From the NCBI GenBank assembly GCA_964355645.1, contig CAYHDI010000002.1, positions 11,452-75,451 on the forward strand: 64,000 bases of DNA, written 5' to 3'. Origin of the DNA: an uncultured Candidatus Saccharibacteria bacterium. Its GTDB lineage: Bacteria > Patescibacteriota > Minisyncoccia > Phycocordibacterales > Zambryskibacteraceae. Below the pieces are notes generated by a model, which worked only from the letters and a program-made list of their open reading frames with translations, made no database searches and was not told where the DNA came from. Each line of letters begins with the position of its first letter. Position 1 is the first letter of the stretch. The translations under genes and the position numbers were made by a program. Of this stretch, positions 20,881-21,352 are shown one piece after another.

Positions 20881-20937
20881 ATACACCTCACCCCGCCACG
20901 TCGGTCGTGGCGCCCCTCTCCTTGTTAAGGAGAGGGG
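20881..20937. repeat. GC-rich palindromic element, copy B (left outer arm, spacer hairpin, inner hairpin)
   Basis: The sequence is atacacctcacccc-gccacgtcggtcgtggcg-cccctctccttgttaaggagagggg. Confidence 0.6.
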
Positions 20938-20955
20938 AATATAAAGAAGATATTC

Positions 20956-21309
20956 ATGCCAACATTACATAATCTGAATAGACTGAAAGACAGAAGGCGA
21001 GAATTACGTTCTCAAGGTACAACTACTGAAAAAATTCTTTGGAATGTTTTGCGAGACAATAGAACAGGTTTCAAATTCAAAAGACAACACAGTATTGGAG
21101 GATATATTCTAGATTTTTATTGTGCGGAAAAACACTTGATTATAGAAATCGATGGAGGTATACACAATTCTAAAGATCAAAAAGAATATGATTTTATTCG
21201 AGATAAATTTTTTAAAGACTTAAACTACAAAGTATTGAGATTAAAAAACGACGAGGTAGAAAATAATCTTGTGATAGTAATAAGAAAGATTAAAGAAGCC
21301 TTGCATTAG
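20956..21309 (+). CDS. DUF559 endonuclease-domain protein (Vsr/restriction-endonuclease-like fold)
   Basis: ...RRELRSQGTTTEKILWNVLR...FKFKRQHSIGGYILDFYC..KHLIIEIDGGIH...DFIRDKFFKDLNYKVLRLKNDEV matches the DUF559 consensus closely. The gene is AT-rich relative to its neighbours. Confidence 0.8.
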   Translation: MPTLHNLNRLKDRRRELRSQGTTTEKILWNVLRDNRTGFKFKRQHSIGGYILDFYCAEKHLIIEIDGGIHNSKDQKEYDFIRDKFFKDLNYKVLRLKNDEVENNLVIVIRKIKEALH

Positions 21310-21310
21310 T

Positions 21311-21352
21311 CCCCCTCACCTTAGCAAGGAGAGGGGCAGGGGTGAGGTGTAT
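21311..21352. repeat. GC-rich palindromic element, copy C (inner hairpin plus right outer arm)
   Basis: ccccctcaccttagcaaggagaggggcaggggtgaggtgtat lies directly after the DUF559 stop. Confidence 0.6.

What the first reader, a model, noticed from the sequence alone, without database searches (positions are those of the whole stretch)
20881..21352. DUF559 endonuclease gene bracketed by two halves of the palindromic element, a candidate minimal mobile unit
Upstream of the AT-rich DUF559 gene (20956-21309) lie the left outer arm, spacer hairpin and inner hairpin. Directly after its stop lie a second inner hairpin and the right outer arm. Together the two halves reconstitute the solo element seen inside dus, with the endonuclease gene sitting between two inner hairpins. 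This suggests either that the DUF559 gene is cargo of the palindromic element or that it is the nuclease that mobilises it. The two inner hairpins differ (loops ttgttaa versus ttagcaa), so this is not a fresh target-site duplication.
Basis: partly seen in the sequence, partly recalled or inferred. Interest (0 to 1): 0.7.

Follow-up and report, generated by a model that had tools for sequence, protein, structure and literature searches.

The report
Endonuclease gene flanked by triplex-forming repeats
A small DUF559 nuclease gene sits between two inverted copies of a repeat that can fold into a DNA hairpin plus a third strand, and the same pairing recurs in many bacterial phyla including E. coli, so two long-unexplained features may be parts of one system.

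Summary
A 117-aa DUF559 (Vsr-like) nuclease gene (20956-21309, 30% GC in a 42% GC window) lies between two inverted modules. Each module is an outer arm plus a GC hairpin.

The whole block recurs with the same ends in an unrelated gene context (L002). It is absent from the same intergenic site in three relatives, one of which carries other DNA there.

The pairing is general. Of 72 stand-alone DUF559 genes from several phyla, 61 have such a hairpin within 130 nt upstream, against 7 of 115 control ORFs.

The "halves" are a known repeat class: intrastrand triplex motifs (PIT elements, TMECO). The outer arm is a mirror copy of the hairpin's purine arm and changes with it across lineages.

E. coli ycjD, Neisseria NGO0050 (PDB 3HRL) and a Picosynechococcus gene carry such motifs too. 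In a sample of 60 E. coli genomes, those with ycjD hold about twice as many motif copies.

No paper in the searchable library links the two.

Best reading, inferred: DUF559 is the nuclease partner of these repeats, and break repair copies the gene and the repeats. No target-site duplication and no clean empty site were found, so the mechanism is unproven.

The parts
20881..20894 (+). Left outer arm ATACACCTCACCCC. On the minus strand it reads as the G-rich third strand GGGGTGAGGTGTAT of the left triplex motif.
   Evidence: (I4: 14/14 complementary to 21339-21352).
20895..20911 (+). Spacer hairpin GCCACG-TCGG-TCGTGGC between the arm and the inner hairpin. Its sequence varies between relatives.
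   Evidence: folds as a 7-bp stem; differs in L002 and L005.
20913..20937 (+). Left inner hairpin CCCCTCTCCTT-GTT-AAGGAGAGGGG, a perfect 11-bp stem with a pyrimidine arm and a purine arm.
   Evidence: (I10).
20884..20937 (-). Left triplex-motif unit read on the minus strand: C-arm, loop, G-arm, an 18-nt linker that is itself a hairpin, then the mirror G/T arm.
   Evidence: (10 of 11 triplets compatible).
20956..21309 (+). DUF559 gene, 117 aa: a Vsr-like PD-(D/E)XK nuclease with 30% GC.
21312..21336 (+). Right inner hairpin CCCCTCACCTT-AGC-AAGGAGAGGGG. It has one stem mismatch and is the reverse complement of the left hairpin.
   Evidence: (I1, 92%).
21339..21352 (+). Right outer arm GGGGTGAGGTGTAT, the third strand of the right triplex motif (unit 21312-21349).
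50801..50876 (+). Solo palindromic element inside dus: arm, spacer hairpin, one shared inner hairpin, arm. That is two triplex units on opposite strands sharing one hairpin. It is read through in frame as 26 extra residues.
12940..12980 (+). Single unit (hairpin plus G arm) that abuts the ftsZ stop codon. On the minus strand it scores as an intrinsic terminator. Relatives have a full DUF559 unit at this site.

Best explanation
Shown. The locus is a DUF559 endonuclease gene enclosed by two inverted copies of an intrastrand triplex-motif repeat. Each copy has a pyrimidine arm, a loop and a purine arm, followed by a mirror-image G/T arm. The gene and its two repeats are inherited as one block, and that block is found at a second genomic site in another genome. 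The same gene-plus-repeat pairing holds across Patescibacteria, Bacteroidota, Cyanobacteria, Desulfuromonadales, E. coli and Neisseria.

Inferred. DUF559 is the dedicated nuclease of these repeats. It would nick or cut them when they leave the B-form, as a hairpin, cruciform or triplex. Recombinational repair from other copies would then do three things:
1. Copy the gene, with a hairpin on each side, into palindromic repeat sites. A break in the loop of a solo arm-hairpin-arm element, repaired from a gene-bearing copy, gives exactly arm-hairpin-gene-hairpin-arm.
2. Keep the copies within one genome alike and matched to the resident enzyme.
3. Leave deletions such as the solo element and the single unit.

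On this reading the element works like a free-standing homing endonuclease whose homing site is a dispersed repeat, with features reminiscent of the REP/RAYT pairing.

My confidence that the association is real and functional is about 0.85. My confidence in this particular mechanism is about 0.4.
For: - Anatomy and non-randomness.
- Block identity with exact ends in a different gene context.
- Presence or absence at the S1-MBL site: filled in the window, L001, L005 and L167; no DUF559 in L224, L225 or L226.
- Generality: a GC hairpin lies upstream of 61 of 72 DUF559 genes and on both sides of 30 of 72, against 7 of 115 and 1 of 115 control ORFs.
- Where both flanks carry a motif, 29 of 40 loci have them in inverted orientation.
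- Mirror (triplex) rule: 61 of 73 loci have a hairpin plus a mirror arm with at most one incompatible triplet. 118 hairpins fit in mirror orientation against 27 in direct orientation, and the arm changes together with the stem across lineages.
- The gene has lower GC than its surroundings in 70 of 72 loci.
- Two paralogues in one genome each have their own repeat variant (L020 versus L045).
- E. coli K-12 ycjD has a perfect TMECO motif 167 nt downstream.
- ycjD is present in 3378 of 5426 E. coli genomes. In a 60-genome sample, ycjD-positive genomes hold 6-24 motif copies (median 13) and ycjD-negative genomes 1-11 (median 6.5), Mann-Whitney p=7e-8. This agrees with published counts and phylogroup data.
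- Neisseria NGO0050 and a Picosynechococcus DUF559 gene are also flanked by such motifs.
- Nuclease fold: PDB 3HRL TM-score 0.87, homing endonuclease I-Bth0305I 0.77. Acidic and histidine residues are invariant.
- DUF559 genes are enriched (odds ratio 14) among genes predicted to be targets of programmed inversions in an independent survey, which is compatible with their being flanked by inverted repeats.
Against: - No nuclease activity, binding or cleavage site is known for any stand-alone DUF559 protein.
- A hydrolytic PD-(D/E)XK enzyme cannot rejoin DNA by itself.
- No target-site duplication is visible at five ends.
- No clean empty site was obtained. The closest empty dus allele is only 82% identical and the indel is not clean. 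The S1-MBL spacer differs in other ways as well.
- The unit at trxB-ftsZ has been kept at one site in proteins only 60-65% identical, so spread is slow.
- 60 of 81 repeat copies found by a DNA pattern scan have no DUF559 within 1.5 kb.
- E. coli O157:H7 keeps 11-16 motif copies without ycjD.
- The E. coli correlation is confounded by phylogroup.
- Flank orientation is heterogeneous: 16 loci of the window type, 13 inside-out, 11 direct.
- No promoter-like site was found upstream of the gene on its own strand.
- This subfamily is almost absent from viral contigs (1 hit) and rare on plasmids (35 of 72,556 records), so no transfer vehicle is evident.
Confidence: 0.5

Rival explanations
1. RAYT-like domesticated partner. 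DUF559 is a mostly vertically inherited, usually single-copy host gene. It spreads or maintains the triplex-motif repeats in trans, perhaps on single-stranded DNA at the replication fork. The gene itself hardly moves, and the flanking copies are by-products of its activity acting nearby.
For: - One gene against many repeats: 1 gene and 23 motifs in E. coli K-12; 1 gene and 5 units in this window.
- Long persistence at trxB-ftsZ.
- Inverted flanks are the commonest arrangement.
- Each lineage has its own repeat variant.
- Rare on phage and plasmid records.
Against: - The whole block with identical ends occurs in an unrelated context.
- The gene has lower GC than its host in 70 of 72 loci and is patchily present in E. 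coli, which looks acquired rather than domesticated.
- The enzyme is not a HUH/Y1 transposase and cannot form a covalent intermediate.
Confidence: 0.2
2. Host genome-maintenance enzyme. DUF559 removes or processes hairpin or triplex structures that block replication, in the way Vsr acts on a distorted duplex. The flanking motifs serve to regulate the gene or simply mark an unstable region.
For: - Vsr-like fold.
- The motifs are reported to be linked to genomic instability (Holder et al. 2015).
- More motif copies are tolerated where ycjD is present.
- G-rich arms lie at ribosome-binding distance from the start codon in several loci (L025, L026, L040).
Against: - This does not explain why the gene and both repeats travel together to a new site with exact ends.
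- It does not explain the low GC of the gene.
- It does not explain why paralogues each carry their own repeat variant.
Confidence: 0.15
3. Indirect association. The repeats are recombination or insertion hot spots, or portable terminator and ribosome-binding modules, that gather around any AT-rich acquired gene. DUF559 would have an unrelated role such as restriction or defence.
For: - The single unit after ftsZ scores as a terminator.
- Variable cargo ORFs sit inside the unit in L010, L020 and L033.
- There are weak PADLOC matches to restriction and homing nuclease models.
- Most repeat copies lie far from any DUF559 gene.
Against: - Neighbouring ORFs in the same loci lack the hairpins (7 of 115).
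- The pairing recurs in phyla with very different repeat sequences, and the two flanks of a given gene match each other.
- A pure terminator would not need the mirror third arm.
Confidence: 0.1
4. Classical insertion sequence with derived MITEs. DUF559 would be a new transposase that cuts at the 14-bp terminal inverted repeats and pastes the element elsewhere.
For: - Perfect 14-bp terminal inverted repeats.
- A short gene-less derivative lies inside dus.
- The block has exact ends at a second site.
Against: - No target-site duplication.
- There is no strand-transfer domain; the protein is a 117-aa hydrolytic nuclease only.
- Many loci have direct or inside-out repeat arrangements, or the repeat on one side only.
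- No near-identical multiple copies were seen within one genome.
Confidence: 0.05

Closest known systems
Intrastrand triplex-motif repeats (PIT elements, Hoyne et al. 2000; TMECO, Holder et al. 2015, PMC4666352)
   Same: - Same architecture: pyrimidine arm, loop, complementary purine arm, short linker, then a G/T arm that mirrors the purine arm (G.G-C, A.A-T and T.A-T triplets).
- Multi-copy, mostly intergenic, and sometimes paired in inverted orientation.
- Associated with local rearrangement.
- One of the 23 E. coli K-12 copies lies between fabI and ycjD.
   Different: - The window's units are a register variant (CCCCTCTCC / GGAGAGGGG / GGGGTGAGG) and do not match the published TMECO pattern letter for letter.
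- The left unit has an 18-nt hairpin as its second loop, where the published search allows loops of 1-6 nt.
- One copy lies inside a coding region.
- The published work found no link to mobile elements or to any gene class and does not mention DUF559. The link to the nuclease gene appears to be new.
REP sequences / REPINs and their RAYT transposases
   Same: - A single protein gene flanked by inverted copies of a short GC-rich palindromic repeat.
- The repeat is present in many more gene-less copies.
- Repeat variants are specific to the gene lineage.
- Doublets form long hairpins.
   Different: - The enzyme is a Vsr-like PD-(D/E)XK hydrolase, not a HUH/Y1 transposase.
- The repeat carries a mirror third arm.
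- Flank orientation is more variable.
- The repeat theme is shared across phyla rather than being species-specific.
EDxHD homing endonucleases (I-Bth0305I, PDB 3R3P) and Vsr
   Same: - Same catalytic fold: TM-score 0.77 to 3R3P and 0.49 to Vsr.
- Vsr and I-Bth0305I both act on specific short DNA sites.
- The gene is AT-rich and patchily distributed, as homing endonuclease genes are.
   Different: - The gene is free-standing, not in an intron or intein.
- It lacks the NUMOD/HTH DNA-binding region of I-Bth0305I (117 aa in total).
- The presumed target is a dispersed repeat, not a conserved host gene.
- It is almost absent from viral contigs.
IS200/IS605-type elements and MITEs
   Same: - Subterminal hairpins, no target-site duplication, and short gene-less derivatives.
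- The 14-bp terminal inverted repeats and the solo element resemble a MITE.
   Different: - No TnpA or DDE transposase.
- Hairpin orientation is not fixed.
- The published Geobacter MITE Chunjie (AT-rich, 21-bp inverted repeats, 9-bp direct repeats) is unrelated.
E. coli YcjD and N. gonorrhoeae NGO0050 (PDB 3HRL)
   Same: - Same stand-alone DUF559 family. NGO0050 (3HRL) matches by sequence at E=1.9e-14.
- Both genes have triplex motifs next to them.
   Different: - Only 36-38% identical to the window protein in tblastn matches to copies of the two genes found in the plasmid collection.
- ycjD has the motif on one side only, plus a different hairpin over its start codon.
- The NGO0050 flanks are direct repeats of about 110 nt.

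Membership tests
DUF559 / Vsr-like PD-(D/E)XK nucleases | Match to Pfam PF04480 above its gathering score | tested here: met
   108.9 bits against a cut-off of 20.6, E=1.5e-31, covering profile positions 2-108 of 109.
DUF559 / Vsr-like PD-(D/E)XK nucleases | Vsr-like alpha/beta nuclease fold | tested here: met
   AlphaFold model with pLDDT 87.5. Foldseek gives 3HRL TM-score 0.87, 3R3P 0.77 and Vsr 0.49.
DUF559 / Vsr-like PD-(D/E)XK nucleases | Conserved acidic and histidine active-site residues | tested here: met
   D53, E64, D66, H70 and D79 are invariant in 18 homologues. Their mapping onto the Vsr catalytic residues is by inference only.
DUF559 / Vsr-like PD-(D/E)XK nucleases | Endonuclease activity | not testable with these tools
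   Needs purified protein.
Intrastrand triplex motif (class II purine motif) | Pyrimidine arm, loop and complementary purine arm | tested here: met
   11-bp stems at 20913-20937, 12940-12964 and 50835-50859; one mismatch at 21312-21336.
Intrastrand triplex motif (class II purine motif) | Third arm that mirrors the purine arm under G.G-C, A.A-T and T.A-T rules | tested here: met
   10 of 11 positions are compatible in all five units of the window, against 8-9 in direct orientation and 7.4-8.3 in shuffles. The arm co-varies with the stem across 61 of 73 loci.
Intrastrand triplex motif (class II purine motif) | Loops of 1-6 nt (ITxF definition), or an exact match to the TMECO pattern CCCTCNCCC N3-6 GGGNGAGGG N3 GGGNGAGGG | tested here: not met
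   The right unit and the single unit have a 2-nt second loop, which fits the 1-6 nt rule but not the 3-nt second loop of TMECO. The left unit and one unit of the solo element have an 18-20-nt second loop that is itself a hairpin. The register differs from the TMECO letters. Same class, not TMECO itself.
Intrastrand triplex motif (class II purine motif) | Triplex formation by the DNA | not testable with these tools
   Shown by CD and NMR for TMECO only (Holder et al. 2015).
Insertion sequence / MITE | Terminal inverted repeats | tested here: met
   14/14 (I4).
Insertion sequence / MITE | Target-site duplication | tested here: inconclusive
   No consistent direct repeat at the ends in the window, L002, L005, L010 or L020. 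No clean empty site is available.
Insertion sequence / MITE | Recognised transposase | tested here: not met
   The only ORF is DUF559. No transposase family matched.
REP / RAYT (REPIN) | HUH/Y1 (IS200-like) transposase gene | tested here: not met
   The Pfam scan gives only DUF559 and a weak MTES_1575 match.
REP / RAYT (REPIN) | Gene flanked by inverted cognate palindromes that also occur as many gene-less copies | tested here: met
Homing endonuclease (EDxHD family) | Residence in a group I intron or intein, with NUMOD DNA-binding repeats | tested here: not met
   A free-standing 117-aa ORF in an intergenic region.
Homing endonuclease (EDxHD family) | Occupied and empty alleles of one site, with cleavage of the empty allele | tested here: inconclusive
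   Filled and DUF559-less S1-MBL spacers exist, but the alleles differ in other ways. Cleavage cannot be tested here.

The most novel reading that the evidence does not exclude
DUF559 proteins (about 37,600 clusters at 50% identity, including E. coli YcjD) are the long-missing protein partners of intrastrand triplex-motif repeats. A Vsr-like nuclease would recognise a folded hairpin or triplex DNA structure and, through break repair, propagate both itself and the repeats. This would be a pan-bacterial selfish nuclease-plus-repeat system, different in enzyme and in DNA structure from IS/MITE, REP/RAYT and intron-borne homing endonucleases.
Probability: 0.4. Interest if true: 0.9.

Novelty: new variant of a known kind. 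Interest (0 to 1): 0.8.

Why it matters
Triplex-motif repeats have been catalogued since 2000. They occur in hundreds of genomes and were linked to genomic instability, yet no origin, spreading mechanism or partner protein is known. DUF559 is a very large family with a solved structure and no known function.

If the two belong together, both puzzles become one testable question. It can be tested in E. coli K-12, where one gene (ycjD) and 23 motifs are available, and natural ycjD-less lineages exist for comparison.

It would also add a nuclease that reads a non-B DNA structure. And it would explain in-frame palindromic insertions in conserved genes of small-genome bacteria.

Tried and rejected
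- **Rfam.** There is no family at gathering score for the element. A sub-threshold osmY RNA match (30.9 bits against 46.9) at 20892-20958 only reflects two hairpins followed by a ribosome-binding-like stretch.
- **Chunjie MITE of Geobacter.** AT-rich, with 21-bp inverted repeats and 9-bp direct repeats. Not related.
- **Target-site duplication.** None is consistent across five ends.
- **Clean empty sites.** The dus allele of L100 is too diverged. The S1-MBL spacers of L224-L226 lack the gene but differ in other ways too.
- **Cargo ORFs inside the L010, L020 and L033 units.** No family, except a borderline HTH_26 match in L010.
- **PADLOC.** Only weak partial matches to DpdF, a homing endonuclease model and a methyl-directed restriction enzyme model.
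- **Promoter scan.** Nothing upstream of the gene on its own strand.
- **Phage or plasmid carriage.** 1 viral contig, and 35 of 72,556 plasmid records, several of them chromosome-sized.
- **G-quadruplex reading of the G-rich arms.** I considered this but did not compute it. The mirror-repeat rule and the published triplex data fit better.
- **Literature.** Of the 25 papers that mention DUF559, none among those I checked (listing; text) connects it to repeats. No listed paper holds both 'intrastrand triplex' and 'ycjD'. Hoyne et al. 2000 and 2002 were not looked up, so their content is unchecked.
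Full report
**What is there**

On the plus strand, 20881-21352 reads as follows:
- outer arm ATACACCTCACCCC;
- a small spacer hairpin;
- a perfect 11-bp GC hairpin, CCCCTCTCCTT-GTT-AAGGAGAGGGG;
- 18 nt of linker;
- a 117-codon ORF, 20956-21309;
- two bases;
- a second hairpin, CCCCTCACCTT-AGC-AAGGAGAGGGG;
- two bases;
- the arm GGGGTGAGGTGTAT.

The arms are 14/14 complementary. The second hairpin is the reverse complement of the first: 92% as an inverted repeat against 84% as a direct repeat. 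So the gene is enclosed by inverted repeats of about 40 nt.

The ORF is DUF559 (PF04480, E=1.5e-31). Its GC content is 30% in a 42% GC window.

**Chance**

The hairpin pattern occurs four times in the window against zero expected. A scan for pyrimidine/purine hairpins followed by a mirror G/T arm finds five units on four hairpins, and none in 20 block shuffles. Two of the five flank the only DUF559 gene. As single-stranded DNA, the left half and the solo element fold far better than shuffles (z about -7). The right hairpin alone does not (z=-1.6).

**The block is one heritable unit and has more than one address**

- A protein 83% identical (P0003) lies between PGK and HIT genes in L002-L004. 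Its alignment with the window begins at (A/G)TACACCTCACCCC and ends at GGGGTGAGGTGTAT, with unrelated DNA outside. The hairpin loops, which vary among gene-less copies, are the same in both.
- L005 (85% identical), L001 and L167 hold the unit at the window's own site, between the S1-protein gene and an MBL-fold gene.
- Three relatives have no DUF559 there. L225 and L226 have spacers of only 195-199 nt, against 1,019 nt in the window. L224, the closest by MBL identity (91%), carries other DNA. These alleles differ in more than the unit, so no exact junction or target-site duplication could be read.

**A second site tells an older story**

Between trxB and ftsZ the window has only a hairpin plus G arm (12940-12980). 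Its last base is the first base of the ftsZ stop codon, and on the minus strand it scores as a terminator.

In L010, L020 and L033 the syntenic spacer holds, in order: arm, spacer hairpin, hairpin, DUF559, a variable minus-strand ORF, hairpin, spacer, arm. The right arm is again flush with the ftsZ stop. The window's unit is therefore the remnant of a full element that has stayed at one site in genomes whose DUF559 proteins are only 60-65% identical to the window's. Movement is evidently rare.

**The pairing is general**

A protein-pattern scan of one genome per species returned more than 594 relatives. I analysed the best 80 loci, drawn from Patescibacteria, Bacteroidota, Cyanobacteria, Desulfuromonadales, Chloroflexota and one archaeal bin.

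- Of 72 stand-alone genes, 61 have a GC-rich hairpin within 130 nt upstream, 37 have one within 110 nt downstream, and 30 have both.
- The figures for 115 other ORFs in the same loci are 7, 19 and 1.
- The sequences differ by lineage, but the two flanks of a given gene match each other. Two paralogues in one genome carry different variants.
- The gene has lower GC than its surroundings in 70 of 72 loci.
- Where motifs are found on both sides, 29 of 40 loci have them inverted. These split into two topologies: hairpins next to the gene (16 loci, the window's type) and G arms next to the gene (13 loci). Eleven loci have direct arrangements.

**What the halves are**

Most hits were gene-less single units, including a highly repeated copy in a high-GC organism. 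Only 4 of 81 had DUF559 directly upstream.

The G arm is a mirror image of the hairpin's purine arm: GGAGAGGGG against GGGGTGAGG. A sequence-word search led to Holder et al. 2015 (PMC4666352). That paper describes exactly this architecture as intrastrand triplex motifs. These were first listed by Hoyne et al. in 2000. In E. coli the consensus is CCCTCNCCC N3-6 GGGNGAGGG N3 GGGNGAGGG, called TMECO. Holder et al. report that the motif:
- forms a triplex in vitro;
- occurs 23 times in E. coli K-12 and 3,610 times in 262 genomes;
- is sometimes paired in inverted orientation;
- marks rearrangement-prone loci;
- had no detected link to mobile elements or to any gene class.

My own test of the triplex rule gave the following:
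- All five window units are compatible at 10 of 11 positions.
- 61 of 73 DUF559 loci have a hairpin with a mirror arm showing at most one incompatible triplet.
- 118 hairpins fit in mirror orientation, against 27 in direct orientation.
- The arm changes with the stem. Examples are GGAGAAGG/GGAAGAGG, GAGGGGAGG/GGAGGGGTG and AGGGGGAGA/AGAGGGGGT.

The window's units belong to this class but do not match the TMECO letters exactly. The left unit has a hairpin as its long second loop.

**Model organisms**

*E. coli.* K-12 ycjD is a 117-aa DUF559 gene with several relevant features nearby:
- a perfect TMECO 167 nt downstream, listed as motif 9 in Holder's Table S2 without comment;
- a degenerate hairpin across its stop codon;
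- a duplicated fragment of its 3' end;
- a 15-bp hairpin over its start codon.

ycjD is present once in 3,378 of 5,426 complete E. coli genomes. According to PMC12817139 it occupies the fabI-sapF spacer in phylogroups A, B1 and C, and in most other lineages the eef operon sits there instead.

Holder's counts are 19-30 motifs in A, B1 and C strains, 1-2 in B2 strains and 6-15 in D, E and F strains. I ran a concatenated ycjD-plus-motif query and sampled 60 genomes evenly down the ranking. ycjD-positive genomes had 6-24 motif places (median 13). ycjD-negative genomes had 1-11 (median 6.5), and 615 genomes had no match at all. This correlation is confounded by phylogeny.

*Other species.* N. gonorrhoeae NGO0050, the protein of PDB 3HRL, is flanked by direct repeats of about 110 nt, each carrying a motif. 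A Picosynechococcus PCC 7002 DUF559 gene is surrounded by short CCCCC/GGGGG/GGGGG motifs.

**The protein**

- The AlphaFold model is confident (pLDDT 87.5). It superposes on 3HRL (TM-score 0.87), on the catalytic domain of the homing endonuclease I-Bth0305I (0.77) and more loosely on Vsr.
- Acidic and histidine residues are invariant among homologues.
- The family is large: 37,639 cluster representatives at E<=0.001.
- This subfamily is nearly absent from viral contigs and rare on plasmids.
- An independent survey lists DUF559 among the gene families most enriched as predicted inversion targets (odds ratio 14). That is compatible with inverted repeats at their ends.

**The solo element**

Inside dus, 50801-50876 is arm, spacer hairpin, one hairpin, arm. 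That amounts to two units on opposite strands sharing one hairpin. It is read through in frame as 26 residues, in the linker between the catalytic barrel and the C-terminal domain.

Dus homologues of 72-82% identity vary in length exactly at this point. Some are empty. One has a single unit (L223) and one has two units back to back (L222). Others carry what look like different palindromic repeats. The copy in each genome resembles that genome's other copies, which points to turnover or gene conversion among copies.

**Mechanism**

What is shown:
- the anatomy;
- block inheritance and a second address;
- the cross-phylum association;
- the mirror-arm rule;
- the nuclease fold.

What is inferred: DUF559 cuts or nicks its cognate repeats when they fold, and repair from other copies does the copying. 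A break in the loop of a solo arm-hairpin-arm element, repaired by synthesis from a gene-bearing copy, would produce arm-hairpin-gene-hairpin-arm with no target-site duplication. E. coli's inverted motif pairs (hairpin-arm, 16 nt, arm-hairpin) look like the empty form of the other topology.

This reading is a free-standing homing endonuclease whose site is a dispersed repeat. I hold it at about 0.4, and the functional link itself at about 0.85.

The rivals are:
- a RAYT-like domesticated partner;
- a structure-resolving host enzyme;
- an indirect association through hot spots or regulatory modules;
- a classical transposon.

The evidence against my reading:
- no activity is known for any stand-alone DUF559 protein;
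- a hydrolase cannot rejoin DNA;
- the unit at trxB-ftsZ has been kept at one site for a long time;
- most repeat copies are far from any DUF559 gene;
- motif copies survive in ycjD-less lineages;
- flank orientation is heterogeneous.

**Comparison and novelty**

The repeat class and the protein domain are each known. The link between them was not found in the searchable library, though subscription-only papers could not be checked.

The system works like REP/RAYT or a homing endonuclease, but it fails the defining tests of each: there is no HUH transposase, no intron or intein, no DDE enzyme and no target-site duplication. I therefore rate it a new variant of a known kind.

It matters because it would give a function to DUF559 and an origin to the triplex repeats, and both can be tested in E. 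coli K-12.

Noticed in passing
window 50801-50876 and Dus homologues P0122-P0239; loci L100, L222, L223: The linker of Dus, after GRGVFGNPWFF, is a hot spot for in-frame insertions in Paceibacteria-like genomes. Alleles are either empty, or carry one or two triplex units, or carry what look like other palindromic repeat families, all at the same position.
   Followed up: partly
window 21380-21645, minus strand: A GC-rich region of about 220 nt beside the element folds better than shuffles (z=-3.9). It ends in a terminator-like hairpin (21401-21382) and is preceded by a sequence I read by eye as a TTGACA-type promoter near 21640; the promoter scan did not cover that position. No Rfam family matches. 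L005 keeps part of it, and L224 has a different GC-rich insert after the same promoter-like sequence.
   Followed up: partly
window 12980-12982; L002 3398-3400: The last T of the right arm GGTGTAT doubles as the first base of TTA, which is the TAA stop of a convergent gene. This happens at two independent sites: ftsZ (also in L010, L020 and L033) and a HIT-family gene.
   Followed up: partly
L010 1907-2383, L020 2916-3269, L033 2905-3123 (minus strand): Unrelated small ORFs lie inside the unit, between DUF559 and the right repeat. Only the L010 ORF has a borderline Cro/C1-type HTH match.
   Followed up: partly
Proteins P0009, P0033, P0036, P0053, P0105: Several 116-129-aa DUF559 homologues are named leucyl-tRNA synthetase or Leucine-tRNA ligase by their sources. 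This is probably annotation carried over from a fused or misread gene.
   Followed up: no
L221 2290-2420 (E. coli K-12, downstream of ycjD): A second, truncated copy of the last 40 nt or so of ycjD, followed by a degenerate motif, lies between ycjD and the perfect TMECO. This suggests past rearrangement at the locus.
   Followed up: no
window 56123-56239, minus strand: A weak tblastn similarity to the DUF559 protein: 38% identity over 53 residues, E=0.37. Probably noise.
   Followed up: no
Fold search of the DUF559 model: Several mitoribosomal proteins of Tetrahymena and Toxoplasma contain a domain that superposes on the DUF559 model (query TM-score 0.60-0.67).
   Followed up: no
L101, L108, L113, L115, L116, L118, L127, L131, L132, L136 and others: One high-GC organism group carries many near-identical copies of gcgcggggaaCCCCTCTCCTGTAAGGAGAGGGGCAGGGGTGAGGTGTAGgcccctggaccag. 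The hairpin and arm are letter-for-letter like those of this AT-rich Patescibacteria window.
   Followed up: no
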